Assembly (NCBI GenBank): GCA_964476015.1
Contig: CAYYZT010000001.1
Span: 1 to 32,355 of the forward strand
DNA from: an uncultured Chitinophaga sp.
GTDB taxonomy: Bacteria > Bacteroidota > Bacteroidia > Chitinophagales > CAIOSU01
Direction of reading: 5' to 3'
Length of the DNA stretch: 32,355 bases
In this document: in pieces, positions 539-16,764 of the stretch
Position numbering within the stretch: the stretch's first letter is position 1
Layout: every line of letters starts with the position of its first letter
Position numbers and translations under genes: made by a program
The notes under the pieces: model-generated
What the model was told of the DNA's origin: nothing
The model's database searches: none
Seen by the model: only the letters and a program-made list of their open reading frames with translations

Positions 539-1051
539 TCACTCCTCCAGTAAGTCGATAAAGCAATTGTCATTACTATCAAAAAATGATGGGTCTGATT
601 CCATTTTTGCCCTAATTTTATCTAATCCTCCATTTGCATATTCCTCTAGTAATTTTCTTAGGGACAATATTTCTTTTTCAATCTCTGTTTCTTCCAATTT
701 TTCCAACTCATTAAAATCAATATCTGATTTAGCTAACAATGCCATAATAACATAGTCAGCAAGATCATTAGGCTGCCAAAATTTAATTTCCATGAACTTT
801 TCTTTTTTGGCATTTTTACTAAAGGGAACTCTATAGTCGTTTTTTAATCCTAATAGAGCTGCATACATGTATATCTCATATTTAGTCGAAAAAAATTTCC
901 CCTGTTCCCATGCAGTTTCATCAGATGCAGTTCCCGCCCTTCCCCCCTGGCCAAGAGTAACCTTAGTAATTAAGCTCTCGTGTATGGCATCATATTCCGG
1001 TGCTCGATCTTTGATTCGTTTAAGCAGTTCCATATTAATTGAGTGATTCAA
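539..1051 (-). CDS. Small helical protein, last gene of the PT-associated restriction-like module (possibly the 'Dnd system-associated protein 4' type)
   Basis: A 170-aa ORF that overlaps the stop of the upstream ATPase. An alternative ATG at 1033 would leave a 1-nt gap instead. The family assignment rests on memory of size and context only and has not been verified. Confidence 0.5.
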   Translation of the reverse strand: MNHSINMELLKRIKDRAPEYDAIHESLITKVTLGQGGRAGTASDETAWEQGKFFSTKYEIYMYAALLGLKNDYRVPFSKNAKKEKFMEIKFWQPNDLADYVIMALLAKSDIDFNELEKLEETEIEKEILSLRKLLEEYANGGLDKIRAKMESDPSFFDSNDNCFIDLLEE

Positions 1052-3218
1052 TTTTTGTAGATAGATTACTCCGATTAATTCTATCGTTTTCTAAGATAGA
1101 TGGGGTAATAGTGTATACTTTCCCAACTTTTATATCAGGATTTTTCAATAGTTCGTTTCTAAGTTCCTGATTTTTGTAAAACTCTTTACTCATAATAATG
1201 CTTTGCCTGTATACCTTACTAACCGTTTTACAAAAACCAAGTGTGTAATCTTCCCCAAATACAGATGTAGGAGCATCTGTAATGAGCGTATAAATCTCAC
1301 CCGAATTTCCTTTTGCAGAGATAATGGCCATTATAGCGGATAGCTTAACAAGAATTAGATTGCTAGTATTTAAGCCAAGCAACGGATTGCCATTACTATC
1401 AATGATTTCAGGCATGTAATTTCCGTTGGGCAGCTTTCGCAACTTAATTTTTCCTCTTGTTGATTTATTGCCCGAAGTCATAGCTTGATAATGGATATTC
1501 GCTTCTTGCTCCAATTGAGCTATAAGGTTGTTGAATACCCTATCCCGGGTGGTTTTCGATATTACTTTAAAATCTTGTGTTACATCTCTCTTTTCAACTA
1601 ACCAGCTAGGTAACTCTCCAGTAACTAAATCTTTGAATTGATCGTTAATCCCTGCGAGAAGATTTTCAAAATTCTCTATTTCCTGAGATACCAGGTTCAA
1701 GTCGTCTTTGAAATCCTTTGCATTTTTGTACTGTATCGAATATTCATTCAAAATATTTTGAGCTTGTTCGCTTGTCAGTAGGGTGTCTGTAAGTAATTTC
1801 TGGATGTCCGATTCGACATTTTCAATTTCTCTATTTGCTTCCCGCACTTTTCCCTGTAAATCACTACGCCTTATCAAAGTTTCACTTATATCATCAGCAA
1901 TTTCTGCAATTCGGTTACTCAAGGATAATCCATTCTGATATAGGCGCTTAAAGTCATCAGAAAAATCCTGAGATGTCCTTGTGGTTTCTTTTCCGTTTTT
2001 TTTCTTTGATGTATCGCGATTAAGAAGTTCTTTAATTTTCAACCACGCTTCAGTATCTTTTTTTGCCTCACGATCACAAACCAAACAACGCTCTTTATCA
2101 AGCATCCATTCCACATAATTTGGTTCAGGTACATTTATTGGCAACCGTGTTTGAAGATTTGTTGCTACCTCATCTTCAATATCTTTTCTTGCCTTATCTT
2201 CAGCTGCACTCTGCAGCTTCCTTTTCTCATAATCTGAGAATTTCTGAGCGTAGTTTTTTTGTAAATCTTCTGTCCCTCTTAAGACCCATTTGTTACGAAA
2301 CATTTTGCGATGAAAACTCACCTGCTCGCTTTTTAGTGATTGGTTGAGAGCAGCTAGATTGTTTAAAAGGCCTCTTTTACGTTCTTGCAAAACACTAACT
2401 TTTTGTGCATCTGCCTGTTTATTTAGGAGTTCCTCGCATCGTGATTCCGCTCTTGATAAGTTATCGTTGATTTCCGTTTCTTCTTTTTTTCGTTCCTGTA
2501 TTCTTTTTTCCAGTTCACATTTACGAGCTTCCAATTGGGTGCTTTTAACAGAGTCTTTACTCAATCTTGTAATTTCCCGCTGGTACTCGTTACTTGCTGT
2601 TCCCGCCGCTGCTTCGGCGATTTTGATAATGGCATCGTAACGGGAGATGTTAGACAGTACATCAACTGCTTTTGTAAGCGTATCTTGTTTATTAAAATCT
2701 ATGATGGATTCAACTTGTTCACCCTGAAACCAGAGATAATCTTTAATTTTAGAAGGAAGTATACTATTAAGGATTGCCCTTTTTCTATCTTCATCTGTTA
2801 TCATTTTAGCATTAAGATAGGACAATTCTTTTTCCATTATGGTAAATTCTCCATCATTATCTTCCTGAACATTACCATCTGTAACTGAAATAGAATAGCG
2901 CCTTTCCAAAATGTACATGTTATCCCGCTCCAAATTGTGAAAGGTAATTTTTACGGATGTGGTAACCTTATCATTAACAGTTTCGGATTTTGCTTTGTCG
3001 GAAATCAGCTTTGATTTCACAATTTTTGTGGCCTGGAACTCCTTCTTTTCAGAAACGAAAACTTGGTCATACATTACCCAATAAAAAGCATCATACAATT
3101 TTGATTTTCCGTAACCATTATCACCAATAATTACGTTAATGCCTTCAGAAAATTCAATACAATTACCTTTTCCGGCATAGCACATAAAGTTATCCAGCTC
3201 TATCTTTTTGATAATCAT
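1035..3218 (-). CDS. DndD/SMC/Rad50-like ABC ATPase with a long coiled coil
   Basis: There is an N-terminal Walker A (VIIGDNGYGKSKLYDAF). A long charged, heptad-like middle region contains CLVCDR (CxxC) near its centre. A C-terminal Walker-B-like motif (YTLITDAPTSVFGEDY) resembles the D-T/A-P motif of DndD. Confidence 0.75.
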   Translation of the reverse strand: MIIKKIELDNFMCYAGKGNCIEFSEGINVIIGDNGYGKSKLYDAFYWVMYDQVFVSEKKEFQATKIVKSKLISDKAKSETVNDKVTTSVKITFHNLERDNMYILERRYSISVTDGNVQEDNDGEFTIMEKELSYLNAKMITDEDRKRAILNSILPSKIKDYLWFQGEQVESIIDFNKQDTLTKAVDVLSNISRYDAIIKIAEAAAGTASNEYQREITRLSKDSVKSTQLEARKCELEKRIQERKKEETEINDNLSRAESRCEELLNKQADAQKVSVLQERKRGLLNNLAALNQSLKSEQVSFHRKMFRNKWVLRGTEDLQKNYAQKFSDYEKRKLQSAAEDKARKDIEDEVATNLQTRLPINVPEPNYVEWMLDKERCLVCDREAKKDTEAWLKIKELLNRDTSKKKNGKETTRTSQDFSDDFKRLYQNGLSLSNRIAEIADDISETLIRRSDLQGKVREANREIENVESDIQKLLTDTLLTSEQAQNILNEYSIQYKNAKDFKDDLNLVSQEIENFENLLAGINDQFKDLVTGELPSWLVEKRDVTQDFKVISKTTRDRVFNNLIAQLEQEANIHYQAMTSGNKSTRGKIKLRKLPNGNYMPEIIDSNGNPLLGLNTSNLILVKLSAIMAIISAKGNSGEIYTLITDAPTSVFGEDYTLGFCKTVSKVYRQSIIMSKEFYKNQELRNELLKNPDIKVGKVYTITPSILENDRINRSNLSTKIESLN

Positions 3219-3220
3219 AA

Positions 3221-3439
3221 TCAGCCTTCTTTGTTGAGACTTTGGTTAATCTTTCTAATAATTACAGTTTCGCCCTCACCATCAATGTTTCCTACAATTG
3301 CAATTTTAATTACCTCTAGAAGTTTTGAATTTGTAGAGTGATGAAAATTTAGCTCCTGTGCTTTTTCTTGAGTGATGTAATTTTTTTCAGTTAGGAGCGG
3401 GTCTTCCAAAAATGTTTTGTAAAATTCATCTTTTGTCAT
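3221..3439 (-). CDS. Hypothetical 72-aa protein, translationally coupled between the helicase and the ATPase
   Basis: Its ATG overlaps the helicase stop (ATGA at 3436-3439). Its stop lies 2 nt before the ATPase start. It has the same strand and composition as its neighbours. Confidence 0.55.
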   Translation of the reverse strand: MTKDEFYKTFLEDPLLTEKNYITQEKAQELNFHHSTNSKLLEVIKIAIVGNIDGEGETVIIRKINQSLNKEG

Positions 3440-5676
3440 GTGGTAGCAAGTTCAGATTGGATAGTATAGATGTTAAGATTGTAGTAATTACAAACAATTT
3501 CAAACTTATCCTCAGTAAAATAAGGATTTTTTGCAAGTGAAGCAAAATACATAACCCGCTCTAGTTCTTTTTTCACAAGCGACTTTTCTAAAGTATAAGT
3601 TTCCGTCCCTTCTATTGCTCCTTCATAATCAGGAATTACTACTAAATCATGTATAGTGGCATATCTCTTAGCAGGATGTTTACGTAAAATTCTTCCCCGT
3701 CTTTGGATAAACTGCCTAGGGTTTCCCGTGCTACTACAAAAAATGGCTGTTTCTGCTCGAGGAATATCAACTCCTTCATCTAAACACTTCATTGAGGCAA
3801 TTACATCAATACTCCCGCTTTGAAATTGGGTTAAGATTTCGTCCCTATCTTTCATTCCGCTGGTGAACTGATTTACCAAAATACTTTCATCTATTTTCGC
3901 AATTTCTCGTGTATATTGGTTTATTAGTCGGACGTTATCTGTTATAGGTTCCCCATCATCTTCTAGTATTTCAAACGTTTCTCCTTCAGGAACATAAACA
4001 AAAGTATACTTCAGGTCGCCTTTCTTTTTAAACTGTTCTTTTAAAATCTCTATCGTAGCTGGGAGTTTGTTTGCGGCTTTATGAATTATTCTCTTTCTCT
4101 TTAACAATAAGCGCTCAATAATGGAGTCTTTGTCGGGATTTGAATTCCCGTATAGGTATAATTTAGCAAGTTGATTACTTATTTCGGTATATTCTGCCAT
4201 TTCATCCGTCGTAAGTTTTATAATATGCGGATAATAATCATATTGGCACAACACCTTTTCATGAATAGCCTTTTCCATAGGGAAGGAATAGGTATATGGC
4301 TCTTTATCTAAGAAGAACTTTTCCATTTCGGCTGTACCTTCTGGATCATAAACCCTCTTAGGCGTTGCGGATAGGCCAATCCTTTTATCTGGATTAAACT
4401 CAGTTAGCTTACTGGCCACTGTCGGTGAAGCCAGATTGTGTCCCTCATCGGCAATAAAAATTGTGTCTATTGGTAGATTTCTAACTACGCTTTGAAATTT
4501 ATCCTTAACAAAGGAAGCATAGGTACTTATAAGAATAAACGAAACAGGGATTCTTTTCGCAGTAGAAATTAAAGTAGTTACATCGGCCTGCCAGTCAACT
4601 TTTGATGATATTTTATAAACTTCCTTAAAATTAAATGATTTCACTTCCCTTTCCCATTGTTCTACCAAAGTAATTGTCGGAACAAGGATCAGTGCATGAT
4701 AAATATCATTTCCATTTCGCCTATACTCATTCAACAAACAATTCAGTGAAGTAATCGTTTTACCAGTTCCGGTGGCCATTGCAAAGATTCCTTTATAACC
4801 ATTTTCTACCCAATTGATGTAGGCTTCCTTCTGATATTCCCTTGGACCTTCAATGTAAGGAAATCTGGGATTTCTTCTAATTTTATCTAAATCGTTATGC
4901 AGCTTAACTATGGTTTGCTTTAAGCGTTTGTTACCAACTAGGCTCATTTTCTTATTCAACAACTCCTCTTCATCCACAATCAATTCATCCAGGTCTTTAT
5001 TCCCGAACTTATCTCTAATAGCAATCTCTATTTCACTTGCTGATAGATACTCAACCTCTTTATCCTTTTCGGCAAAGTAATCATCGATAACCCTTAATTG
5101 CTTCTTTATGAGCTTGTTCGACCTGCCATTCTCCCAGCTCAAAAAGGCTTCTAACTCTTCAAGGTTTTCTGATAGACCATACAAGGTGAAATTGCAAGAA
5201 CCCTTATATGCCACAAAATTTTCACCGTCACTGAAAACACCTGACTTGTAATGTGCTATCCCATCGCTGTTCTTCGGCTTAATTACCTTTATCTCTATGC
5301 GCTTTTCCGCTATCAAGTATGCTAAACACTCAAAGAAGTGCCGATCATACTCATCGAGCACTTTCCCTAGAGCTTCAATGTCCGTCAAATCAAATACTCG
5401 GTTAATATTTGCTGCATTTTCGCCTTTTTCAAATGCATCCTTGTCGTTTTTGGAAAGAAATTGGTTGATAACGATTCGCATTTTACCCCCATTGCTTATG
5501 AATTTGGCAAAGCCTATGGATAAAAGGTTAATAGCGGCCGAACTGAAATAACCTAGTAGTAAGTGGAATTGTGTACTATTGGCCAAGCCGTCCAAATAAA
5601 ATTGCAAAGGCTCATTCTCAGTTCTATTCTTGTAATCTCTATCTTCTGACCATTGACAGTTTCTAAGCATGCCCAA
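3436..5676 (-). CDS. PLD-family nuclease domain fused to an SF2 (ResIII/DEAD-like) helicase
   Basis: The PLD HxK(x4)D...GSxN motif is present (GIAHYKSGVFSDGENFVAYKGSCNFT). Helicase motifs are I (AMATGTGKT), II (FIADEGHNL), III (LSATP) and VI (QRRGRILR). Confidence 0.85.
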   Translation of the reverse strand: MGMLRNCQWSEDRDYKNRTENEPLQFYLDGLANSTQFHLLLGYFSSAAINLLSIGFAKFISNGGKMRIVINQFLSKNDKDAFEKGENAANINRVFDLTDIEALGKVLDEYDRHFFECLAYLIAEKRIEIKVIKPKNSDGIAHYKSGVFSDGENFVAYKGSCNFTLYGLSENLEELEAFLSWENGRSNKLIKKQLRVIDDYFAEKDKEVEYLSASEIEIAIRDKFGNKDLDELIVDEEELLNKKMSLVGNKRLKQTIVKLHNDLDKIRRNPRFPYIEGPREYQKEAYINWVENGYKGIFAMATGTGKTITSLNCLLNEYRRNGNDIYHALILVPTITLVEQWEREVKSFNFKEVYKISSKVDWQADVTTLISTAKRIPVSFILISTYASFVKDKFQSVVRNLPIDTIFIADEGHNLASPTVASKLTEFNPDKRIGLSATPKRVYDPEGTAEMEKFFLDKEPYTYSFPMEKAIHEKVLCQYDYYPHIIKLTTDEMAEYTEISNQLAKLYLYGNSNPDKDSIIERLLLKRKRIIHKAANKLPATIEILKEQFKKKGDLKYTFVYVPEGETFEILEDDGEPITDNVRLINQYTREIAKIDESILVNQFTSGMKDRDEILTQFQSGSIDVIASMKCLDEGVDIPRAETAIFCSSTGNPRQFIQRRGRILRKHPAKRYATIHDLVVIPDYEGAIEGTETYTLEKSLVKKELERVMYFASLAKNPYFTEDKFEIVCNYYNLNIYTIQSELATT

Positions 5677-6817
5677 GATTTGGTTGAGTTAATTTTGAAA
5701 TGGCTTCAATGACGGTTTCTATATCTTTTTGTGTAGTAAACCTTCCCAAGGAAAACCTTAGCGATGCAAATGCATCATCATCGTTTAATCCCATTGCAAG
5801 AAGCACATGAGAGGGTTCAATTACAGCCGCTGTGCATGCGGAACCATTAGACACTGCTATATTTCTCATTCTCCCTATCATTACATTGGCATCAAATCCT
5901 CTAAAGCAGATATTGCTTACGTTATACAGTCTTTTCTCAGTACTGCCGTTTATAAAGGTATTGGGAATCTTGAGCAGTTCGCTTTCCAACTCATCTCGTA
6001 AAATAGCAATTCGTCCCGCGTCTTGATGCATTTCTTGCTGTGCTATTTCACATGCTGCTCCTAATGCAATAACCCCTGGAGCATTCAGTGTTCCACTTCG
6101 TAAACCTTTCTCGTGCCCCCCTCCATGTGTATATGTAGGAAGCTTTAGATTTCGCCTTATATACAAAGCTCCTATGCCTTTAGGTCCATACATTTTATGA
6201 CCACTCAGGCATAAAACATCAATTCCAAGTGCATCGACATCAATTTCTACTTTTCCTACTGATTGGGTCGCATCAGTAACAAACAATGTCCCCACCTCAT
6301 GGGCAATGGAAGCAATTTCTTTAATAGGTTGTAATACTCCGGTTTCATTGTTTACATGCATAATACAAACTAGAATTGTGTCATGACGTAAAGCATTTCG
6401 AAGCTCATCCAAACAAACTAATCCATTCCCTTGAACTGATAAGTAAGTGACTTCATACCCTTTGGTCTCAAGATGCTTACAGGTATCAAGCACTGCGTGA
6501 TGTTCTGTTGAGCATGTAACAATATGTTTGCCTTTTGTGGCATAACTTTCTACAATTCCCTTTAAAGCAATATTAAGTGCTTCTGTGGAGCCACTAGTAA
6601 ATATAATTTCGCCTTCATCTACTCCAATCAGATTAGCAACCCGCGTCCTTGCGGTTTTAATTGCTTCATTAATAATGGAACCGAAGTGATGAGTGCTACT
6701 AGGGTTCGCAAAACTTTCTTTTAGGTATGGAAGCATTGCATCCAACACTCGATTATCTATAGGAGTGGTGGCGTTATAATCAAGGTATATAACTCCGTTA
6801 TTTGTTAACATGAACAA
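5663..6817 (-). CDS. sspA: Cysteine desulfurase (NifS/IscS class V aminotransferase), SspA/DndA-like
   Basis: The N-terminus is NifS-like (IYLDYNATTP). The PLP-lysine motif LSGHKMYGPKG is present. The catalytic-cysteine loop is SNGSACTA. The gene sits in an operon with sspBCD. Confidence 0.85.
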   Translation of the reverse strand: MFMLTNNGVIYLDYNATTPIDNRVLDAMLPYLKESFANPSSTHHFGSIINEAIKTARTRVANLIGVDEGEIIFTSGSTEALNIALKGIVESYATKGKHIVTCSTEHHAVLDTCKHLETKGYEVTYLSVQGNGLVCLDELRNALRHDTILVCIMHVNNETGVLQPIKEIASIAHEVGTLFVTDATQSVGKVEIDVDALGIDVLCLSGHKMYGPKGIGALYIRRNLKLPTYTHGGGHEKGLRSGTLNAPGVIALGAACEIAQQEMHQDAGRIAILRDELESELLKIPNTFINGSTEKRLYNVSNICFRGFDANVMIGRMRNIAVSNGSACTAAVIEPSHVLLAMGLNDDDAFASLRFSLGRFTTQKDIETVIEAISKLTQPNLGHA

Positions 6818-7205
6818 GAGAAAATTTCTTCAGAAACTCTATACCATCTGAAATATTATTTACTACAACTCCAGAGGGCTTATACAGTATTTTGAAATAC
6901 CTAGCAAAAGTTGGTTCTTCCAACGACCTTTCATCAACGAGAATAATCGTTTTGTTCAATGAATATGCTACACCTAATTCAAAAGCTAGACCATAACCTG
7001 ATGGGTTGGATGCTTCCATAAAACCAAAGAAAATATCGCATTCCTTTATAAAGTGAATATCCCAAGTCGTATAAAATTCAGAATGCTCAAGGCCGTGCTC
7101 TCTTGGGTTAAAGAAAACAAATTGATTATCAAGCTGCTCAATAATGTTCGATTGCCAGTTACTTTTAAAACCTCCGGATAAAAAAACTTTAGACTTATAG
7201 CTCAT
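6798..7205 (-). CDS. Nucleoside 2-deoxyribosyltransferase-like (NDT/SLOG-type Rossmannoid) protein
   Basis: The start was trimmed to MSYKSKVFLSGG (ATG at 7205). The motif SGYGLAFELGVAYSLNKTIILV matches the D/S-G-x-x-x-E-x-G-x-A core of NDT-family proteins, including the catalytic Glu. The N-terminal strand and Gly loop is VFLSGGF. Confidence 0.6.
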   Translation of the reverse strand: MSYKSKVFLSGGFKSNWQSNIIEQLDNQFVFFNPREHGLEHSEFYTTWDIHFIKECDIFFGFMEASNPSGYGLAFELGVAYSLNKTIILVDERSLEEPTFARYFKILYKPSGVVVNNISDGIEFLKKFSLVHVNK

Positions 7206-7911
7206 GCTTGAGTTGTTTTGCAGTATATATTGAAAATGGCAACCCAATAGCTATCGCATAAAATCTATCACGGGTCTGCCTTAAAAAGATGTAACTTAAA
7301 ATCAAACACACATAAACTATAAGATGCGGTGTAGTTGTTTTAAAAACTGGCAATAAATAGGAACTAAAAATTGTAAAAAACAATCCCAATATTCCTATAA
7401 TGAAAGAAATATTCCCTGTATGATTTGACAGTTCAGACCTAAACATAAATCCATATATTTTCTGGTCGTGCTCTGGGATAAAACTCATCGCAATACTTCT
7501 TAGATCCCTAATACTTGCTGTCTCTAGATTATCTATTAGTTCTTTTCCCTTAAGCGCATTTGCCAACAATTTCTTTGAAAGTGAAAAAGCTTTCCGTGAT
7601 GCAACCTGTTTTTCAATTTTTTTTGTATAGGAATCCTTTCCCAAAATATGTTCCTTTAATAAACCAAAGCCGTAAACCACGTGGCCAAGCAAGTATGATA
7701 TAGATATAAATATGAAAATGTAAAAGTCACTTGTGTTTGCACCAAGTGATGGAGTAATAAAATAAGTTGGCTCAATAAAAACTGAGAGTAGGATCAGAAT
7801 ATAACTTCCGGGCAATAAATATCCAATGATATCCCAAATAAATTCTTTAAAGGAATCAAAAAAGCCTTTTATGCTTTCCATACAAGTCTTTTTAAATAAA
7901 ACACGAGGCAC
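7195..7911 (-). CDS. Multi-pass membrane protein of unknown function
   Basis: The ORF is 238 aa, or 228 aa from MESIKG at 7881. Hydrophobic helices flank a charged central segment: IIGYLLPGSYILILLSVFI, FYIFIFISISYLLGHVVYGF, ISFIIGILGLFFTIFSSYLL and LIVYVCLILSYIF. It overlaps both neighbouring genes. Confidence 0.6.
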   Translation of the reverse strand: MPRVLFKKTCMESIKGFFDSFKEFIWDIIGYLLPGSYILILLSVFIEPTYFITPSLGANTSDFYIFIFISISYLLGHVVYGFGLLKEHILGKDSYTKKIEKQVASRKAFSLSKKLLANALKGKELIDNLETASIRDLRSIAMSFIPEHDQKIYGFMFRSELSNHTGNISFIIGILGLFFTIFSSYLLPVFKTTTPHLIVYVCLILSYIFLRQTRDRFYAIAIGLPFSIYTAKQLKHEL

Positions 7912-8998
7912 AACCTACACTATCATCTTCACCCAAAATATCAATTAAATATTGAGATTGGCTTTTAATCTTCTTTCTTTCCATTTTTTTTAAGTATTCA
8001 CTTTTAATTTTTTCCATTCGTGCGGGCTGAATCAATTCTTCCAAACTTTCTCCTTGGCCCCAAGTATAACCATCTTTTTCGTATTGCATAGCTTTTTTAT
8101 ACAACTCTGGGTGCTGTTCATAAAGCCATACCCATTCTATTTTTTGCTGGAAGAAGCAAAAATAGCATCCCGAGCGGCTTCTGGCATATTGCCCGATCTT
8201 ACCATTTACATCAAAGTCTAGTTGTTTATAGTAAGCGGGAACGCCAACCCCACTCTCTTCCAAAATCCTGAAAATATCACTCTTTACCAGGATATCTTCA
8301 TTGTCTAAAAGAGGGAATGAAGCCTCCTTGGCCAAAGGATACTCAGTGCCTTTCAGATACCCAAAAACCAAATGATTAAAGGCTTTTACATCAAGATCAA
8401 GCAATAAATTCAGCTTTTGAGTTTGGGTGAATGAAGGCTCGATTTTTTTTGAAATGGTCTCTATCGCTTTATCCTGCCATCTACCGAAATCAATATTGTC
8501 TGCGATTGATCGAATAAGCTCTATACTTTGATTTGAAATTACCTTTGCAATCACATCCTCACTCCAAATATTTCGCCTAAAAGGAAAAATTGACTGGATG
8601 TTTTTCTTGGTTGAAATGTAACCTTCTCTTTCTTCATCACCTCTTATTCCAACATAGGAAATTACTGGGTTGGCTCCAACGTATTTCTCAAATGGGTCAA
8701 GTTTTAATTTTTTAGTACACCATCTTGAATTTGAGGAAGGAAGAAACCCGCCATACATTTTCAAAAAATGGTCAAATGGATCTTCCGAACTGTTTTCTGC
8801 AGCTTGCAATAAGTTTATCTTAATGCCTAAATAAACTTCTAGATTTTTTATGAGTTGGTATGTTTCATCCAGTTCTTTTCCTGTATCGCAAGAATAAAAC
8901 TCCATATCCAATAAGGGATACTTGGCCTTCATATAGATAGCTAATGCGGCACTATCCTTACCACCGGAAATACCTAATACATGCCTTACAGTATTCAT
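7892..8998 (-). CDS. sspD: PAPS-reductase/PP-loop ATP pyrophosphatase, SspD/DndC-like
   Basis: The PP-loop motif is VLGISGGKDSAAL. Cysteine clusters are present (RSGCYFCFF and C-terminal CASCFI). There is a 4-nt overlap with sspC. Confidence 0.8.
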   Translation of the reverse strand: MNTVRHVLGISGGKDSAALAIYMKAKYPLLDMEFYSCDTGKELDETYQLIKNLEVYLGIKINLLQAAENSSEDPFDHFLKMYGGFLPSSNSRWCTKKLKLDPFEKYVGANPVISYVGIRGDEEREGYISTKKNIQSIFPFRRNIWSEDVIAKVISNQSIELIRSIADNIDFGRWQDKAIETISKKIEPSFTQTQKLNLLLDLDVKAFNHLVFGYLKGTEYPLAKEASFPLLDNEDILVKSDIFRILEESGVGVPAYYKQLDFDVNGKIGQYARSRSGCYFCFFQQKIEWVWLYEQHPELYKKAMQYEKDGYTWGQGESLEELIQPARMEKIKSEYLKKMERKKIKSQSQYLIDILGEDDSVGCASCFI

Positions 8999-11900
8999 TG
9001 CAATAATTCTTTTAATAGGTTTACCACTGCCGCAATATTTGAAGTTCTGTTATTGCCAAGTTTCTTTTTCAAGGCAATTTTGATTTCCTCAATTTCGTGG
9101 TTCTTGTACTTTGGTATTCTTACAATTTTAGGGTCAATATTACTGAAAAACGCATCTATTTTCACCCCTATTATTTCTTCACTGCTTTCATCAATGTCGT
9201 CTTTTGAAAGGTTAGTAAGGCTATCCAATTCCAATATCATTGCCTTAAACTTTCCATATAACAATATCTCATCTTCATCCGTAAACACTTCGAGCGTCTT
9301 TCCGACAGTAGCCTGTGCTATGGAGTTGAGCCATGCCCTTTTGTCATCAAGCGCAGAATCAAGGCGTTGTATAAAGGTCTTTTGGTTAGCTAGAAGTAAA
9401 TGTTTTTGTAGGGTAGAAAAGCGATTTTGCAGGAGTTCTTTGTAATCTTCAAAATCAAGAGTTTTTCCGATAAATTCGTTACAGATAAACTCTTCAAATC
9501 TCTTAATTAACTCATCATAAGCCGTGCGCAGCTCTCGAACCGCACTTTGAATACTTACTGTATAACTCTGTAATTTCGACCGGTCTTGTAACAATACATT
9601 AAGCGAGGTGCCCAATGCATTAGGAAACGCCTCAAAAAACGTTTTCTCGGGGTCTTTACTGGTTGCTATTGCCTGACGAATTTTTAACGCAGCTGGAGAA
9701 AGACGTCTCGTTTGTTTGGTATATTCTGGCAATTGCTTGTAAAAAACCACGAATGGTTTTATCGTCTCAATAAATGATGTATTATCGAACTTTATCTCAG
9801 CGGATTGGTTAAGAAAGGCCCTATAGCTGTTGAAAATGTCCAGCTTTACGCCATCAATATCAAAGGCTTTAATTGAGAATTGATGAGGATACTTAGCAAT
9901 CAATTCCAAGTTTTCCTCTGACAGGTATGGTATATAACCATCTTCATTAAACATGGCGAAGTCATCTCGCTTCAGGAAAAGAAAGGTCGGCACCCAAAAA
10001 TCAATTAATCCTTGCTTTAATTTGAAGGGGCGTTTATTCAAAATCTTAACGAACTCAGAAATATGTTTCTGCTCAAACTTTGCGCTGCATATAAATTTTT
10101 CAGATATACTCCATAGCCTGAAAAACGAGGAGTTCTTATTGACCGCAACATTCGATGCATTGTCTCTAACAGGGGTTATGCCATTCTCTTTCAATAATGA
10201 AAGATAAATGGTTTTCTCAGGCGGGAACTTGGTTTCTTCAAATCCCAAATTTTCTTTGTCCCAACTATTAACCAATGCCTTAAAATAGTTTTTCTTGGCA
10301 GTATGAATTGAAGGGGAGATGCGGTGTTTGTTGACCAGTTCATTTTTGAAAACTGGGGTGGCACTATATACCAGCTCACAAACCTGGGAAAGGAGCTTAT
10401 TGAAGTCTTTCTTTTCGGCGATTACCTTTTTCTCACCCTTGAAAAACCATTGCACATCCTGACTGTCGGTGTAAATGCTGTCGGAAATGTAATGATTAAG
10501 CAACCGAATTTGGGAATCGATGATATTTTCCAGTTCCCTCTTTGCAACCCTATCCTCTTTATTCTCTTCGGTAACCTTTTGGATCTTTTCAATTTCGAAC
10601 AAGAGGTTTTTTATGTCTGCAGAATTTTTGAAGAAACAATATATAACTGCTTCCTTCTGATTTTTTGACACCTCCTGTATGTCGTCTACAGTAAGCTTAC
10701 CATTAAAAACAAGGTTGATAAAACCATCGATGTCACCGAGTGGGGCTTCCATGGTGATGGGATATTCTGAGATTTTAAATTCGAAATATCTAGGTGTGCC
10801 TTTCTCATAAGAAGATAGTTTGGCAAATACCGGAGCGAACTGAAAGTATCTGTTCAGTAGCGTGGTTATGTCGCTAACTTCTGAAATTTTATTCCCCGCT
10901 TCAATTAGGGCCGTTTGGATATCTAAATCCGTTCCTTCGAATAGAATATAACGCTGGCTATGAGAGCGAAAACGAATGATGCTTTTATCTTCAAGACTCT
11001 TTAAGATATAAGGGCTATCGTGGATGCCACAAGCAAACTTGAGGTAATTGCTAAGGAATTGTTTATCAATTATGGAGCCTGTGGGTGAAAAAACATTCAA
11101 TAAACCTATGGTTTTTACTGCTTTGATGTGGTCGTTTATTAAGGAGGTAAATGTTCTTTCAATGTTTTCTATTGCAGACCGAATAGAGCTCCATGCCGAA
11201 AAATCAGGATTGTATTTGGAGGTAAGGAATGAATAGTAGTTAAAGTTTAGGTAATCATAAACACAGCCTAGGTTGAAGAAGGGATTTTCCTGTTTATTAT
11301 ATCTTGTCAGGCCGGTATGGTCGGTTGATTCTAAAAAAGTAAATAGTGATCTTTCATTTTGTCCATAGCGCTGTAGAGCAAGCGTAAGGGTAGTTGCAGC
11401 AAGAACATCCAATGGAAAGAGCTTGATAGCAATCTCATTTAAATAATTACTATTGATGTTGAATGCTTTTGCTGAAATCGCAAGCTGTAGGCATCTCTCA
11501 ATAGCGGAGGCAGAAGGTTTAACTTCGAGATTGGAGGAAACATGTTCGGATGCCAAAAACAGAAGCTGCTCGACGGGTTCGTTAAAAGTGATTTCGCGAA
11601 AACGCCCTTTTACCTTTGTCCATTCTTGCTTCTGTGTGCCACTTAGAGAATAAGCATAGGATTCAAAACTTTGATGAACCGTAGTAATTAATACGATATT
11701 ATGCTTCGGGTTGTTACAGAACTCAGCCAATTGCTGGACGAAATACAACTCATTTTCAGGATTGTGCTTGCTTGCATATTCTAAGAACTTGCCAAATTCG
11801 TCTATGAATAAAAAGAGAATACTGTTGTCTTTTCCTAGAGCGTGATACCTGTTAAAAACTCCCGAAAAGACATTCTCCTGCCTGTTCTTCTGTGTCTCTA

Positions 11901-12213
11901 CATCAAACATGTCAGCAAACTGCTCCTCGATTGAGGAATATGAGCCAACCACCTTTATGAATTCAATTTTAGGGTCAGCCATAAAGTTTGGCTCAAAATA
12001 TCGCTTCCTTCCTAAGAGACTTTGTTCCAACGCTAATAAAAAAGAAGACTTACCCGTTCCGTATGTGCCCACAATACTGAACGAACGAATTCCCTTCTTG
12101 AAATCGTTAACTATCTGGCTTACTACCTGCCCTGCATTGGGGGTCGGGATATAGTGGAAATCCCTTTCGGCATCTCTAAGGATATTAACCGATGTGGAAT
12201 AATTATTTGCCAT
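8995..12213 (-). CDS. sspC: Large P-loop ATPase, SspC-like
   Basis: Walker A is IVGTYGTGKSSFLLAL and Walker B is ILFLFIDEFGKF. The gene lies between the DUF4007-like and PAPS-reductase genes, as in ssp clusters. I do not recognise the roughly 850 aa beyond the ATPase domain. Confidence 0.7.
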   Translation of the reverse strand: MANNYSTSVNILRDAERDFHYIPTPNAGQVVSQIVNDFKKGIRSFSIVGTYGTGKSSFLLALEQSLLGRKRYFEPNFMADPKIEFIKVVGSYSSIEEQFADMFDVETQKNRQENVFSGVFNRYHALGKDNSILFLFIDEFGKFLEYASKHNPENELYFVQQLAEFCNNPKHNIVLITTVHQSFESYAYSLSGTQKQEWTKVKGRFREITFNEPVEQLLFLASEHVSSNLEVKPSASAIERCLQLAISAKAFNINSNYLNEIAIKLFPLDVLAATTLTLALQRYGQNERSLFTFLESTDHTGLTRYNKQENPFFNLGCVYDYLNFNYYSFLTSKYNPDFSAWSSIRSAIENIERTFTSLINDHIKAVKTIGLLNVFSPTGSIIDKQFLSNYLKFACGIHDSPYILKSLEDKSIIRFRSHSQRYILFEGTDLDIQTALIEAGNKISEVSDITTLLNRYFQFAPVFAKLSSYEKGTPRYFEFKISEYPITMEAPLGDIDGFINLVFNGKLTVDDIQEVSKNQKEAVIYCFFKNSADIKNLLFEIEKIQKVTEENKEDRVAKRELENIIDSQIRLLNHYISDSIYTDSQDVQWFFKGEKKVIAEKKDFNKLLSQVCELVYSATPVFKNELVNKHRISPSIHTAKKNYFKALVNSWDKENLGFEETKFPPEKTIYLSLLKENGITPVRDNASNVAVNKNSSFFRLWSISEKFICSAKFEQKHISEFVKILNKRPFKLKQGLIDFWVPTFLFLKRDDFAMFNEDGYIPYLSEENLELIAKYPHQFSIKAFDIDGVKLDIFNSYRAFLNQSAEIKFDNTSFIETIKPFVVFYKQLPEYTKQTRRLSPAALKIRQAIATSKDPEKTFFEAFPNALGTSLNVLLQDRSKLQSYTVSIQSAVRELRTAYDELIKRFEEFICNEFIGKTLDFEDYKELLQNRFSTLQKHLLLANQKTFIQRLDSALDDKRAWLNSIAQATVGKTLEVFTDEDEILLYGKFKAMILELDSLTNLSKDDIDESSEEIIGVKIDAFFSNIDPKIVRIPKYKNHEIEEIKIALKKKLGNNRTSNIAAVVNLLKELLQ

Positions 12214-13099
12214 AGTATTCGTCGAGGATTAAGTATGCGTTTGGCTTGTTCTTGAACTGTAATTCCTTTATACCTGCATGGTCAGTGAACGTTATCCCAC
12301 TATTTTTTTGCACAACTTCATTGATTTTATTAACTAAGCCTATGCGGTTGAGGGCAAATATTGATCCTGGACTATTCGAGTCAAACTCTAAAGAATTCAA
12401 ACTAATGGAATTGCTATAGCTGGGATTATCTAAAATGGAATAAAGTATAACTACTGCCGGTAGGTTATCTCTTTCATTATTTTCAATCTGGAATTGCTCA
12501 TCCTTACCTTTTCCGATTGTTTTAAGTAGGTTTATTTCGGACAAAATTCCCGAGAAACTATCTTCCACGTCATTACTTTGATTGTCGGCCTTGTAAGTGT
12601 TTACAAACACATTAAAATCCTTTGCAACAGTATTTTCATTGAAACTGATTTCAGCATCAGACTCTTGTAGCCTTTTCAGATAATTCAAAAAGGTTTCTCT
12701 CGTAAAAAATAGTTTCTCCTTCCTGAATTCGTTAAAGACAATACTATAAATAGACGCTAATTCGGTTTTGACAAGCTGATAATGTAACAACCACAAACTT
12801 GCTTCATCTTCTAAATAAGGATCATAGCCCACTTCTTCGTCAAATAACCTTTTTCCAAATTCTGTAGGGATGTCCTTATTGTTGATAATATTAAATGCCT
12901 TCATCCAATATCGAATAGCTGCTACCATATTCTTTCCAACACCTAGCTTTACAACAGCATCTTCATCATTAAAAGACTTTTGCTCTTGTACATAATCATA
13001 TCCCTTTTTGAGCCAAAGTTGACGACATTGAAAAGAATCGTGGCCCGAGAATGTATATTTAAGTATATCTAAACTCACTGTATTTATTTTACTCGTCAT
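12203..13099 (-). CDS. sspB: DUF4007-like protein, SspB-like (reported nickase of Ssp systems)
   Basis: The N-terminal motif FSGHDSFQCRQLWLKKGYDY matches the F-x-G-H-E/D-x-F...R..WL.K signature I associate with DUF4007. It is the first gene of the operon. Confidence 0.7.
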   Translation of the reverse strand: MTSKINTVSLDILKYTFSGHDSFQCRQLWLKKGYDYVQEQKSFNDEDAVVKLGVGKNMVAAIRYWMKAFNIINNKDIPTEFGKRLFDEEVGYDPYLEDEASLWLLHYQLVKTELASIYSIVFNEFRKEKLFFTRETFLNYLKRLQESDAEISFNENTVAKDFNVFVNTYKADNQSNDVEDSFSGILSEINLLKTIGKGKDEQFQIENNERDNLPAVVILYSILDNPSYSNSISLNSLEFDSNSPGSIFALNRIGLVNKINEVVQKNSGITFTDHAGIKELQFKNKPNAYLILDEYYGK

Positions 13100-13444: not shown

Positions 13445-13574
13445 GCGGGTGAAATGGATGTGCAAGAAATGCTCCTGCGGATTCCTACTTGCACACCCGC
13501 TCCCAACTAACTTTTTGGTGCCTACACAGGGCATAAGCGCTTTAGCGCATGCTCTCTTTTCTTAACACCAAAAA
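13445..13574 (+). promoter_or_regulatory. Two large stem-loops immediately upstream of the ArdC-side operon (candidate leader, ssDNA promoter or oriT-type structure)
   Basis: The first is a nested pair: GCGGGTG 13445-13451 with CACCCGC 13494-13500, and GTGCAAG 13460-13466 with CTTGCAC 13488-13494. The second is TTTTTGGTG 13512-13520 with CACCAAAAA 13566-13574, enclosing the palindromes AAGCGCTT and GCATGC. The structure ends 11 nt before the ATG at 13586. Confidence 0.35.
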
Positions 13575-13585
13575 CCCTTTCAGCC

Positions 13586-13981
13586 ATGAAAGAAAAACAG
13601 AACGGCACCCACACAGCTGCCACCCCCGCAAAGGCGGACGACAAGAAAGTAATTTCTAACGGCAGCCCTGCGCCACAGCCCCCGACCGTGGAGTTTGTGC
13701 AAGCGGACACCAAGCCCGAGGAACTGGCCAAGGAACGGCTGGCCAAAAAGGTAAAGCTTGAGACCCTCTACGAGGACATCGAGCAACTGGAGGAGGCGGT
13801 AAAGGAATTTGATTCCATCCAATCCTACGGCGAAGTGACCGTGATTATCCAGTGCGGGGGCAGCAACCGTTTTAAGACAAGCCGTCAGGACACCGTGTCC
13901 GCAGGGCTGGAAGCCCTCGGAACGAGCATCAAGGCAAAGCTTGCCCTTGCGTACCGCCAATTGGGCGATTTCCAGTTTTAA
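13586..13981 (+). CDS. Hypothetical protein (first gene of the ArdC-side operon)
   Basis: A 131-aa ORF with a plausible protein composition: a low-complexity N-terminus followed by a charged helical segment. It is co-oriented with ardC, 48 nt upstream of it. The overlapping minus-strand ORFs look like shadow ORFs. Confidence 0.55.
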   Translation: MKEKQNGTHTAATPAKADDKKVISNGSPAPQPPTVEFVQADTKPEELAKERLAKKVKLETLYEDIEQLEEAVKEFDSIQSYGEVTVIIQCGGSNRFKTSRQDTVSAGLEALGTSIKAKLALAYRQLGDFQF

Positions 13982-14029
13982 CCTATTCCATCACAGGGGG
14001 CGGGATAACCGCCCCCAAACTTCTTTGTT

Positions 14030-14932: not shown

Positions 14933-14952
14933 TACAGTATCGCCCTATCCAG

Positions 14953-14985
14953 CGCCATGTCCTTGAACCGAGGGCATGGCGTTTT
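14953..14985 (+). terminator. Rho-independent terminator after ardC
   Basis: CGCCATGTCC (14953-14962) pairs with GGGCATGGCG (14972-14981), including one G-U pair. The stem is followed by TTTT. Confidence 0.7.
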
Positions 14986-14995
14986 GGTGCGCGCC

Positions 14996-15030
14996 CTTCT
15001 TTTTCTGGGTAACGCCGCCAGAAAAAGAAG
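14996..15030. repeat. Perfect 13-bp inverted repeat (hairpin)
   Basis: CTTCTTTTTCTGG (14996-15008) and CCAGAAAAAGAAG (15018-15030) are separated by a 9-nt loop. No T-tract follows on either strand. Confidence 0.6.
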
Positions 15031-15287
15031 CAAAAAGAACGACGGGGGCCTTCTCCCAATAAAAGAGCGCTCTAGGAAAAAGGCTAACCTAGAACGCTCC
15101 GGTCTCCGCACGGGAGGCTAAAAATTACAGCTAATCTTGAAATCGCCGGGCCACGCTCACGAGACTTGGAGTTCTCTTTGCAAGAAAATCCAAGACCCGT
15201 TCGCTGGCGCTTGAAAGAGTTTTACAAAATTCAGCCTTGCTAAAGCAAGACATCAGTTTTGACAACCCTTTCGTTAAAGCCAACCAT

Positions 15288-15848: not shown

Positions 15849-15868
15849 AAGGCAGTTTTAGAGTGAGG

Positions 15869-16417: not shown

Positions 16418-16462
16418 GATGGAGGGCGTTTTGGTTATAGTAAAAGGCTTGTTTTTTTGCAG

Positions 16463-16666: not shown

Positions 16667-16713
16667 GGTAACGGGTTTAGTTGAAGAATTGAAATCAAAA
16701 TACGAAAGGTAAA

Positions 16714-16731
16714 TATAGCACTTGTGCTATA
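16714..16731. promoter_or_regulatory. Candidate operator palindrome upstream of the XRE regulator
   Basis: TATAGCAC-TT-GTGCTATA is a perfect pair of 8-bp arms, 34 nt upstream of the HTH gene start. It overlaps a TATAAT-like hexamer. Confidence 0.4.
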
Positions 16732-16764
16732 ATATTCAAATTCTTTTTTGCTCAATTTTCCTGT

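What the first reader, a model, noticed from the sequence alone, without database searches (positions are those of the whole stretch)
6798..7911. Two-gene insert (multi-TM protein + nucleoside 2-deoxyribosyltransferase-like protein) inside the ssp phosphorothioation operon
Seen in the sequence:
- Two extra genes sit between sspD and sspA and overlap their neighbours at both ends.
- One is a 228-238-aa protein with about four hydrophobic helices around a charged loop.
- The other is a protein of roughly 135 aa with an NDT-type core (VFLSGGF and SGYGLAFELGVAYSLNKTIILV).

Established knowledge:
- As I recall them, Ssp systems consist of SspABCD plus SspE or SspFGH. Neither a membrane protein nor an NDT-like protein is part of them.
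- NDT/SLOG/TIR-like Rossmannoid domains recur in conflict systems as nucleotide sensors or nucleotide-cleaving effectors, often paired with TM effectors.

Inference:
The pair could be one of three things. It could be an embedded independent two-gene defence module, a new accessory or regulatory arm of the PT system, or a base- or nucleoside-exchanging activity linked to DNA modification.
Basis: partly seen in the sequence, partly recalled or inferred. Interest (0 to 1): 0.65.

Follow-up and report, generated by a model that had tools for sequence, protein, structure and literature searches.

The report
Membrane-anchored nucleotide glycosidase add-on of Ssp
Two small genes inside a DNA-phosphorothioation (Ssp) defence operon encode the two halves of one membrane-tethered enzyme of the nucleoside-deoxyribosyltransferase family; it was found only next to Ssp genes, in several phyla, and I found no description of it as part of these systems.

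Summary
A 228-aa four-helix membrane protein (7195-7881, minus strand) and a 135-aa NDT-fold protein (6798-7205) lie between sspD and sspA.

New here: the two are one functional unit. In Gammaproteobacteria and Desulfobacterota they are fused into a single 360-400-aa protein, and 57 of the top 150 family clusters are that long.

All 37 genomic contexts examined lie in SspBCD loci. The restriction partner alongside varies: Pbe-like, SspE, SspFGH and others.

The unit is rare and optional. Only 2 of about 70 close SspD relatives in metagenomes carry it, and 1 of 71 SspD-bearing plasmids. It sits in a slot after sspD that elsewhere holds other accessory cassettes.

The enzyme domain faces the cytoplasm. 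It keeps the Glu nucleophile (148/148) and the Asp acid (145/150) of DNPH1, MilB and NDT.

Best reading: an Ssp-dedicated, stackable accessory that cleaves the N-glycosidic bond of a nucleotide-like substrate at the membrane, probably as an extra defence output. Substrate and trigger are unknown.

It is not an independent module. It matches no PADLOC model, and no searched paper mentions it. I class it as a new variant of a known system.

The parts
12203..13099 (-). sspB (DUF4007 protein, 298 aa), first gene of the operon
   Evidence: Pfam DUF4007 E 7e-83; PADLOC SspB E 7e-124
8995..12213 (-). sspC (BrxC-like P-loop ATPase, 1072 aa)
   Evidence: PADLOC SspC 1629 bits over the full length
7892..8998 (-). 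sspD (PAPS-reductase-like ATP pyrophosphatase, long 368-aa form with a Cys-rich C-terminus)
   Evidence: Pfam PAPS_reduct; PADLOC SspD E 8.5e-95
7195..7881 (-). Membrane subunit, 228 aa. Four TM helices, N-in/C-in, with a conserved cytoplasmic helical loop of about 75 aa (motifs KEFxWDxxGYLxPG, RxxRxxxMSxxPExDxKxYxFxFR, RxRFY...LPFS).
   Evidence: No Pfam, NCBIfam, PADLOC or PHROG hit. 105 homologues. Model pLDDT 88. No significant fold match in PDB or BFVD. Positive-inside analysis. Homologous to the N-terminal 224 aa of the fused proteins.
6798..7205 (-). NDT-superfamily N-glycosidase-like subunit, 135 aa. Predicted catalytic residues: F8 (Tyr in most of the family), D49, S69, E76.
   Evidence: PF15891 36.9 bits. 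Model pLDDT 82. Foldseek best hits BcmB, NDT, DNPH1, MilB. hhalign to rat Rcl pairs D49/D69, S69/S87, E76/E93. Conservation across 150 clusters.
5663..6817 (-). sspA (cysteine desulfurase; likely start ATG 6811)
   Evidence: Aminotran_5 E 3.5e-89; PADLOC SspA E 4.8e-163
3436..5676 (-). PbeA-like PLD-helicase restriction protein (746 aa)
   Evidence: PADLOC PbeA 1076 bits; TIGR04095 dnd_restrict_1
3221..3439 (-). 72-aa protein at the PbeB position; its cluster c13 and a separate 76-77-aa cluster c9 fill this position in related loci
   Evidence: Clusters c13 (5 loci) and c9 (8 loci); tblastn hits
1035..3218 (-). PbeC-like SMC/Rad50-type ATPase (727 aa)
   Evidence: PADLOC PbeC E 3.6e-29; AAA_23/SMC_N
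539..1051 (-). dnd_assoc_4-like protein (170 aa, PbeD position)
   Evidence: TIGR04062 E 3e-11, below the curated cutoff; conserved in 13 related loci

Best explanation
The two genes encode the two subunits of one membrane-anchored enzyme. The 228-aa protein is a four-helix inner-membrane anchor, N-in/C-in, with a conserved cytoplasmic helical domain. The 135-aa protein is an NDT/DNPH1/MilB-type N-glycosidase that sits on the cytoplasmic face. It is covalently fused to the C-terminus of the anchor in Proteobacteria and Desulfobacterota, and is a separate polypeptide encoded by an overlapping, probably translationally coupled, gene in Bacteroidota.

The unit is a dedicated but optional accessory of SspBCD phosphorothioation modules. 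It is not needed for the sulfur-insertion chemistry. It is carried in the variable slot after sspD and is stacked on top of whichever PT-dependent restriction module the locus has; here that is PbeABCD-like.

The most likely mechanism uses the invariant Glu as nucleophile and the conserved Asp as general acid. With these the enzyme cleaves the N-glycosidic bond of a nucleotide-like substrate (dNMP, NMP or NAD+-type) close to the membrane. That would add a nucleotide-degrading output to the PT-based defence, in the way SspE and SspFGH can be stacked additively on one SspBCD.

Shown: the pair is one unit; it is exclusive to Ssp loci in every context examined; it is optional; the fold, catalytic residues and topology are as described. 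Inferred: catalytic activity, substrate class, the defence-effector role and any control by SspBCD or PT-DNA.
For: One unit. On the Ca. Tenderia plasmid, one 362-aa CDS after sspD matches the membrane-protein profile over residues 8-224 (hhalign probability 97%, E 4.7e-11). Its residues 241-362 match the NDT-like protein (43% identity, E 2e-34). It has 42 relatives, most of them full-length fusions. Of the top 150 family clusters, 57 are 300 aa or longer, and 54 of those hit the membrane-protein HMM. Where the four-helix protein is absent, another single-helix membrane protein (c11) flanks the NDT gene.

Ssp-dedicated. 25 of 25 genome loci have SspB-C-D-[TM]-NDT. So do the plasmid, 7 of 7 fused-form look-ups, L040 and L088, L118 and L119. 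This holds even where gene order differs: after sspA in Desulfomonilia, next to sspH in L037. No Bacteroidota-type relative was found in viral contigs.

Optional. Only 2 of about 70 loci with SspD 56-82% identical carry it. The Hymenobacter plasmid SspBCD (62% identical SspD) lacks it. Of 71 plasmids with an SspD-like gene, 1 carries it. IscS plus SspBCD alone makes PT in E. coli (PMC8092258).

Same slot as other cassettes. Elsewhere the slot after sspD holds SspE, GmrSD_N plus kinase, or DndB-like cassettes. The unit co-occurs with Pbe-like modules (this window), with SspE (L014, L015) and with SspFGH-like modules (L028, L033-L035). Stacking of PT-dependent effectors is documented.

Enzyme. 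The fold is closest to BcmB, NDT, DNPH1 and MilB. E76 is kept in 148/148 clusters, D49 in 145/150, and Tyr at position 8 in 133/140. The roles of these residues in DNPH1 are taken from PMC10483697.

Cytoplasmic orientation. Purifying selection. NDT-like N-glycosidases are known defence effectors, for example the retron Ec86 effector that depletes NAD+ (PMC13276650).
Against: There is no biochemical or genetic data. No locus has the unit as the only candidate partner of SspBCD, so a self-sufficient effector role is unproven.

It is usually the last gene of the modification operon rather than part of the restriction operon. That would fit a modification-side role equally well.

The window's protein has Phe, not Tyr, at the position where Tyr-to-Phe costs rat DNPH1 280-fold in kcat/KM. 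MilB and BcmB naturally carry Phe there (from memory).

The 5'-phosphate-binding Ser (S69) is kept in only 51% of clusters, so the substrate class is uncertain. Why an enzymatic effector should be membrane-bound is unexplained.

Contexts of the roughly 75 stand-alone non-Bacteroidota clusters could not be examined.
Confidence: 0.45

Rival explanations
1. Housekeeping or sanitising enzyme of PT metabolism. The glycosidase destroys nucleotide by-products peculiar to PT-bearing cells. Candidates are nuclease-resistant PT-linked dinucleotides or 5'-thiophosphate nucleotides released on DNA turnover, or AMP from the SspD reaction. This would prevent their re-use or accumulation, and the membrane part might help disposal.
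For: The unit follows the modification genes (sspBCD or sspA), not any particular restriction module. Its closest solved relatives, DNPH1 and MilB/BcmB, hydrolyse non-canonical nucleoside monophosphates. It is always accompanied by another candidate restriction module.
Against: Nearly all close SspBCD relatives do without it (about 68 of 70). A general by-product problem of PT would not be solved so rarely. Its slot is otherwise filled by defence-type cassettes. A membrane anchor is not expected for a soluble-metabolite hydrolase.
Confidence: 0.2
2. Ligand-gated membrane effector. The NDT-like domain is a sensor for a nucleotide-like signal, and its binding opens or oligomerises the four-helix part to depolarise the membrane. 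This would be abortive infection of the kind done by CBASS, Pycsar and type III CRISPR TM effectors.
For: The architecture, N-terminal TM helices plus a C-terminal cytoplasmic Rossmannoid domain, mirrors those effectors. The NDT gene is always paired with some membrane protein, either the four-helix protein or c11.
Against: The catalytic Glu is invariant and the Asp is 97% conserved over 150 diverse clusters, which argues for catalysis rather than mere binding. No cyclase, TIR or other signal-making gene is conserved in the loci. There is no PADLOC match. The membrane part has a large conserved cytoplasmic domain rather than a minimal pore former.
Confidence: 0.1
3. DNA-directed activity tied to the Ssp reaction. 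The glycosidase acts on DNA itself. It might remove or exchange the base of the 5'-phosphorylated nucleotide at an SspB-made nick, or a base next to the PT site. The result would be either a further modification of host DNA or irreparable lesions in foreign DNA entering at the membrane.
For: The strict dependence on SspBCD across phyla and gene orders (37 of 37 contexts). The DNPH1-type site recognises a 5'-phospho-deoxyribonucleotide. The membrane is where incoming DNA appears. Tyr at position 8, typical of 2'-deoxy-specific enzymes, is the family consensus.
Against: No NDT-fold enzyme is known to me to act on polymeric DNA. No DNA-binding domain is present. The proposal is pure inference.
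Confidence: 0.1
4. Essential or efficiency-boosting subunit of this particular SspBCD lineage, for example by tethering the modification complex to the membrane or controlling modification frequency as DndB does for Dnd.
For: It is the last gene of the sspBCD operon and overlaps its neighbours. Its divergence tracks that of SspD (r about 0.77-0.79).
Against: SspBCD operons 76-82% identical to this one lack it. PbeA tracks SspD just as well (r 0.84), so co-divergence is not diagnostic. Catalytic residues would not need to be conserved for a tether.
Confidence: 0.08
5. Independent two-gene defence module that merely landed inside the ssp operon.
For: Defence islands mix systems. The slot after sspD collects diverse cassettes.
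Against: The unit was never seen away from SspBCD in 37 contexts from Bacteroidota, Ignavibacteriota, Gamma- and Betaproteobacteria and Desulfobacterota, including rearranged loci. Only one plasmid of 72,556 carries it, and that plasmid carries Ssp.
Confidence: 0.03

Closest known systems
DNPH1/Rcl (2'-deoxynucleoside 5'-phosphate N-hydrolase) and the CMP/hmCMP N-glycosidases MilB and BcmB
   Same: Same Rossmann-like NDT fold. They are the best PDB matches by sequence (4jen, E 3.7e-6) and by structure (4jen, DNPH1, MilB, TM-score 0.6-0.7). The Asp acid, the phosphate-binding Ser and the Glu nucleophile align.
   Different: Only 12-24% identity. Those enzymes are soluble housekeeping or antibiotic-pathway enzymes. 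This one is membrane-tethered and found only in Ssp loci. The window's protein has Phe where DNPH1 has Tyr. The Ser is not conserved across the family.
Classical nucleoside 2'-deoxyribosyltransferases (PF05014)
   Same: Fold and the motif around the Glu nucleophile (G..E.G.A...K.I).
   Different: It scores just under the PF05014 gathering score (28.6 against 28.8) and fits PF15891 better. No evidence for base exchange. It lacks the extra C-terminal elements of the hexameric NDTs.
NDT-like effector of retron Ec86/Eco1, and TIR or SIR2 NADase effectors
   Same: An N-glycosidase of the same superfamily used as a defence output (PMC13276650). TIR domains appear among weaker fold hits.
   Different: No reverse transcriptase or ncRNA is nearby. 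No PADLOC hit. Membrane-anchored. The partner system is DNA phosphorothioation.
SspE and SspFGH, the known PT-dependent arms of Ssp
   Same: Encoded next to sspBCD, optional, patchy in distribution and stackable on one modification module.
   Different: No homology. SspE and SspFGH are NTPase, nuclease or translocase proteins acting on DNA. This unit is a small glycosidase on a membrane anchor, and it co-occurs with each of them instead of replacing them.
TM-plus-sensor effectors of CBASS, Pycsar and type III CRISPR
   Same: The layout: N-terminal TM helices and a C-terminal cytoplasmic Rossmannoid domain.
   Different: No signal-generating enzyme is in the locus. Catalytic residues are conserved. 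No sequence or fold match.
MotA/PomA/ExbB/ZorA-type stator proteins
   Same: Four TM helices with a large cytoplasmic insert between TM2 and TM3. They are the top, but insignificant, Foldseek hits.
   Different: E at least 0.3 and TM-score below 0.3. No MotB/ExbD-like partner with a conserved Asp was identified. Not a member.

Membership tests
NDT superfamily (PF15891/PF05014; NDT, DNPH1, MilB) | Score above the Pfam gathering threshold | tested here: met
   PF15891 scores 36.9 bits against 30. PF05014 scores 28.6 against 28.8, just below.
NDT superfamily (PF15891/PF05014; NDT, DNPH1, MilB) | Rossmann-like alpha/beta fold matching solved members | tested here: met
   Model pLDDT 82, pTM 0.82. 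37 PDB hits at E no more than 1e-3, nearly all NDT, DNPH1, MilB or BcmB, plus a few TIR domains.
NDT superfamily (PF15891/PF05014; NDT, DNPH1, MilB) | Glu nucleophile after the fourth strand | tested here: met
   E76 aligns with Rcl E93. It is kept in 148/148 family clusters.
NDT superfamily (PF15891/PF05014; NDT, DNPH1, MilB) | Asp general acid | tested here: met
   D49 aligns with Rcl D69. It is kept in 145/150 clusters.
NDT superfamily (PF15891/PF05014; NDT, DNPH1, MilB) | Tyr on the first strand that hydrogen-bonds the Glu | tested here: inconclusive
   The window has Phe8. The family has Tyr in 133/140 clusters, with Phe mostly in the Bacteroidota group. The N-terminal strand was not covered by the hhalign match.
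DNPH1/MilB subgroup (nucleoside 5'-monophosphate hydrolases) | Ser contacting the 5'-phosphate | tested here: inconclusive
   S69 aligns with Rcl S87 and is invariant in the Bacteroidota set. Family-wide it is Ser 51%, Gly 32%, Ala 11%.
NDT superfamily | N-glycosidase or transferase activity | not testable with these tools
   Needs an enzyme assay.
Ssp phosphorothioation system (as a component) | Encoded with sspB, sspC and sspD | tested here: met
   37 of 37 contexts.
Ssp phosphorothioation system (as a component) | Part of the published or curated gene set (SspABCD, SspE, SspFGH) | tested here: not met
   No PADLOC model matches either protein or the fusion. No paper found links them.
Ssp phosphorothioation system (as a component) | Present in most Ssp loci | tested here: not met
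   About 2 of 70 close SspD relatives. 1 of 71 plasmids with an SspD-like gene.
Ssp phosphorothioation system (as a component) | Required for PT modification or for restriction | not testable with these tools
   The published IscS-SspBCD works without it. This lineage is untested.
Signal-activated TM effectors (CBASS, Pycsar, Thoeris type) | A signal-producing enzyme in the same locus | tested here: not met
   No cyclase, TIR or similar gene is conserved among neighbours.
Retron type II-A (NDT effector) | Adjacent reverse transcriptase and ncRNA | tested here: not met
   No reverse transcriptase in the operon. Rfam finds only a tRNA in the window.
MotA/ExbB/ZorA stator family | Significant fold or sequence match | tested here: not met
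   Best Foldseek E 0.32, TM-score below 0.3. PDB profile search gives nothing.

The most novel reading that the evidence does not exclude
The membrane-anchored NDT-like enzyme is a new kind of phosphorothioation-dependent effector. Positioned at the inner face of the membrane, it is switched on through SspBCD or PT status. It then either strips the base from 5'-phosphorylated nucleotides at nicks in incoming DNA or rapidly destroys a nucleotide pool (dNMP or NAD+). That would give Ssp systems a non-nuclease output that can be stacked with SspE, SspFGH or Pbe.
Probability: 0.3. Interest if true: 0.8.

Novelty: new variant of a known kind. Interest (0 to 1): 0.62.

Why it matters
About 84% of sspBCD modules have no known restriction partner (PMC8092258). 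How PT marks are turned into defence is only partly understood.

This unit has a conserved catalytic centre, is exclusive to Ssp loci and spans several phyla. It is a concrete, testable new component. It could reveal a nucleotide-level output or upkeep step of PT systems, and it adds a membrane connection that no Ssp or Dnd model includes.

The natural fusion gives a one-gene construct for experiments. Culturable carriers exist, including Chryseobacterium pennae, Emticicia fluvialis, Sediminibacterium goheungense DSM 28323, Mucilaginibacter galii CCM 8711 and Alloalcanivorax xenomutans.

Annotation pipelines currently label the enzyme a plain 'nucleoside 2-deoxyribosyltransferase' and the anchor 'hypothetical protein'.

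Tried and rejected
- Pfam, NCBIfam, PADLOC, PHROGs, a PDB profile search and Foldseek against PDB and BFVD gave nothing significant for the membrane protein. The weak MotA/ExbB-like hits were rejected as insignificant.
- A sulfur-relay (TusBCD/DsrE-like) role for the small protein was rejected. The Pfam and fold matches are NDT-type, and the only conserved Cys (C56) is Ser or Ala in many members.
- A metagenome scan with a broad NDT alignment (A3) failed because no stretch was conserved enough. The single scan was then spent on SspD.
- Viral contigs hold no Bacteroidota-type relative. E. coli genomes have no DNA match to the fused gene.
- No RNA-seq is available: only four metagenome DNA runs hold the region, so co-transcription could not be checked.
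- Co-divergence with SspD (r about 0.78) looked like evidence for a modification-side role, but PbeA correlates as well (r 0.84). It is therefore not diagnostic.
- dS is saturated for most pairs, so dN/dS rests on a few pairs.
- Contexts of the stand-alone NDT clusters outside Bacteroidota (about 75 of the top 150) could not be looked up, because the look-up tool does not accept proteins returned by the representatives search.
Full report
1. WHAT IS IN THE WINDOW

One minus-strand operon runs from 13099 to 539. Its genes, in order, are below.
- sspB: DUF4007 protein, 12203-13099.
- sspC: 8995-12213.
- sspD: PAPS-reductase-like, 7892-8998.
- A 228-aa membrane protein: 7195-7881.
- A 135-aa NDT-like protein: 6798-7205.
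- sspA: cysteine desulfurase, 5663-6817.
- A PbeA-like PLD-helicase: 3436-5676.
- A 72-aa protein: 3221-3439.
- A PbeC-like SMC-type ATPase: 1035-3218.
- A dnd_assoc_4-like protein: 539-1051.

One correction is needed. With the start codon that 26 of 28 homologues support (ATG 7881), the membrane gene is separated from sspD by 10 nt rather than overlapping it. The other two junctions do overlap, by 11 nt and by 14-20 nt.

Both are real genes. They have 195 and 105 homologues. dN/dS is about 0.05 for the NDT gene (one pair, synonymous sites near saturation) and 0.11-0.18 for the membrane gene. The structure models are confident, with pLDDT 82 and 88.

2. THE SMALL PROTEIN IS AN NDT-FOLD ENZYME WITH AN INTACT ACTIVE SITE

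It passes the Pfam threshold for PF15891.

Its best PDB relatives by sequence are the CMP N-glycosidase BcmB (4jen, E 3.7e-6) and nucleoside deoxyribosyltransferases. By structure they are BcmB, NDTs, DNPH1/Rcl and MilB, with TM-scores of 0.6-0.7. TIR domains appear further down the list.

I aligned the family profile to rat Rcl. The alignment pairs D49 with D69, S69 with S87 and E76 with E93. In human DNPH1 numbering these are Asp80 (proposed general acid), Ser98 (a 5'-phosphate contact) and Glu104 (the nucleophile), according to PMC10483697.

Conservation across 150 diverse family clusters:
- Glu76: 148/148.
- Asp49: 145/150.
- First-strand aromatic: Tyr in 133/140. The window and most Bacteroidota members have Phe. 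From memory, MilB and BcmB also have Phe there.
- Ser69: only 51%.

I conclude that the protein is very probably a working N-glycosidase or transferase. The substrate class (deoxy or ribo, monophosphate or other) is open.

3. THE MEMBRANE PROTEIN

It has no match in Pfam, NCBIfam, PADLOC, PHROGs, the PDB (by sequence or fold) or BFVD.

The model has four long helices. Lys/Arg counts place the 75-aa TM2-TM3 insert and both termini in the cytoplasm.

The most conserved motifs lie in the cytoplasmic parts: KEFxWDxxGYLxPG, RxxRxxxMSxxPExDxKxYxFxFR and RxRFY..LPFS. This suggests more than a passive anchor.

4. THE TWO GENES ARE ONE UNIT

A tblastn search of plasmids found a single hit, on the Ca. 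Tenderia electrophaga plasmid. There, one 362-aa CDS follows sspB-sspC-sspD.

Its residues 8-224 match the membrane-protein profile (probability 97%, E 4.7e-11). Its residues 241-362 match the NDT-like protein (43% identity, E 2e-34).

Forty-two relatives, most of them full-length fusions, exist in Alloalcanivorax, Desulfuromonas, Desulfomonilia and others.

In an exhaustive profile search, 474 clusters score E no more than 1e-10. Of the best 150, 57 are 300 aa or longer with the NDT domain at the C-terminus. Of those, 54 hit the membrane-protein HMM, and the other three show the same N-terminal motif by eye.

The fusion puts the enzyme on the cytoplasmic C-terminus of the anchor.

In the few Bacteroidota loci without the four-helix protein, an unrelated single-helix protein (cluster c11) flanks the NDT gene. 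So the enzyme is always paired with a membrane protein.

5. IT IS TIED TO Ssp, BUT IS OPTIONAL AND RARE

Tied to Ssp:
- A pattern scan of one genome per species gave 25 loci, in Bacteroidota plus one Ignavibacteriae MAG. All have SspB-SspC-SspD-[TM]-NDT in the same order and strand.
- All seven look-ups of fused forms fall in Ssp loci. This includes layouts where the gene follows sspA on the strand opposite to sspDCB, or sits beside sspH.
- So do the most divergent membrane-protein homologue (L118) and an IS-disrupted copy (L119).
- With the plasmid and two metagenome loci, that makes 37 of 37 contexts.

Optional and rare:
- A metagenome scan seeded with SspD returned 80 loci whose SspD is 56-82% identical to the window's. 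Only L040 (TM plus NDT) and L088 (NDT plus c11) carry the unit, out of about 70 with enough flank.
- Operons 82% identical in SspD (L038, L039) lack it.
- A Hymenobacter plasmid SspBCD with 62% identical SspD lacks it.
- Of 71 plasmids with an SspD-like gene, one carries it.
- IscS plus SspBCD of Vibrio anguillarum alone makes PT in E. coli (PMC8092258).

The unit is therefore not part of the core chemistry.

6. THE SLOT AND THE COMPANY IT KEEPS

In the 80 related loci, sspD is followed by one of the following:
- sspA or pbeA directly.
- A GmrSD_N/DUF262 protein plus a protein kinase.
- A DndB-like protein plus a 176-aa protein.
- SspE (PADLOC 948 bits).
- The TM-NDT unit.

The unit co-occurs with every type of PT-dependent partner seen:
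- Pbe-like modules: this window, L002-L006 and others.
- SspE: L014, L015.
- SspFGH-like triplets of about 610, 510 and 1780 aa, the last with an FtsK domain: L026, L028, L033-L035, L037.
- A helicase/HATPase/PLD set: L001, L010, L021, L030.

Its constant partner is SspBCD (or PT-DNA), not any one restriction module. Stacking of SspE and SspFGH on one SspBCD, with additive protection, is documented.

No locus has the unit as the only candidate partner.

Its divergence tracks that of SspD (r about 0.78). PbeA's does too (r 0.84), so this is not diagnostic.

7. INTERPRETATION

Shown:
- One membrane-anchored NDT-fold enzyme, split in some lineages and fused in others.
- Exclusive to Ssp loci in every context examined.
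- Optional.
- Catalytic Glu and Asp conserved.
- Cytoplasmic orientation.

Inferred: it hydrolyses the N-glycosidic bond of a nucleotide-like substrate at the membrane, as an add-on output of PT-based defence. This is by analogy with NDT-like, TIR and SIR2 effectors such as the retron Ec86 NDT-like NADase (PMC13276650).

Rivals:
- A sanitiser of PT-specific nucleotide by-products. Its rarity argues against this.
- A ligand-gated membrane effector. The conserved catalytic residues and the lack of a signal-making enzyme argue against this.
- A DNA-directed glycosidase or base-exchange step. This has no precedent.
- A lineage-specific modification subunit. Near-identical operons that lack the unit argue against this.
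- An independent module. The 37 of 37 contexts reject this.

8. COMPARISON WITH WHAT IS KNOWN, AND NOVELTY

The enzyme is a member of the NDT superfamily and lies closest to DNPH1, MilB and BcmB. The anchor belongs to no described family.

Neither is in PADLOC. Neither appears in any paper I could search, including two large comparative-genomics studies of PT and BREX systems. The library lacks most subscription journals, so an earlier mention cannot be excluded.

I class it as a new variant of a known kind: an Ssp system with an undescribed accessory component.

9. CONTEXT

The Ssp-Pbe island lies next to mobile-element genes:
- An ArdC-like gene.
- A relaxase.
- MobC.
- A type IV coupling protein.
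- A tyrosine integrase.
- tRNA-Val.

The Alloalcanivorax copy lies beside T4SS genes. The Tenderia copy is on a mobilisable plasmid.

Noticed in passing
L017:12470-13012, L019:10373-11083, L020:10364-10996, L021:10385-10963, L022:10474-11295, L023:10383-10940, L025:10323-10961, L088:4737-5264: A second uncharacterised family (cluster c11, 180-273 aa). It has one N-terminal TM helix plus a helical soluble part and no Pfam or PHROG hit. It sits right after the NDT-like gene, mostly convergent with overlapping 3' ends. In L021, L023, L025 and L088 it is present instead of the four-helix protein.
   Followed up: partly
L038-L117 (region just downstream of sspD): The position after sspD is a hotspot for alternative cassettes. 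It holds nothing, or GmrSD_N/DUF262 plus a protein kinase, or a DndB-like protein plus a 176-aa protein, or SspE, or the TM-NDT unit.
   Followed up: partly
window 539-5676: The restriction partner of this SspBCD is PbeABCD-like (PbeA 1076 bits, PbeC, a dnd_assoc_4-like protein and a 72-aa gene), not SspE or SspFGH. PbeA directly after sspD or sspA is the commonest layout among the 80 related metagenome loci. I did not check whether an Ssp-Pbe pairing has been described.
   Followed up: partly
window 13500-26700 and 31441-31516: Mobile-element genes lie beside the defence island: ArdC-N plus zincin peptidase (14030-14932), relaxase (18276-19124), MobC (19099-19587), type IV coupling protein (19584-21038) and tyrosine integrase (25750-26688). 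tRNA-Val is at 31441-31516. GC rises from about 0.36 to 0.46-0.53 in parts of this stretch.
   Followed up: partly
window 26824-30432 (minus strand): A four-gene run: a 453-aa protein with no Pfam hit, a SAM-dependent methyltransferase, a NUDIX hydrolase and a 333-aa protein with only a weak NDK-like hit. It may be another nucleotide-related cargo module of the element.
   Followed up: no
L119:6839-7471: A Nitrosomonas-like Ssp locus in which the fused TM-NDT gene is cut short at 210 aa by a DDE transposase. This is an example of loss of the unit.
   Followed up: no
L023:5174-9631: Three genes are inserted between sspD and the NDT-like gene: a 354-aa DUF262-like protein (judged by eye from its motifs), a 279-aa protein and an 815-aa HATPase-type protein of cluster c15. 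The NDT gene therefore need not be translationally coupled to sspD.
   Followed up: no
window 8981-9445 (plus strand): A 154-aa ORF antisense to the sspC/sspD junction. Its sequence is low-complexity and Ser/Phe/Leu-rich, so it is most likely spurious.
   Followed up: no
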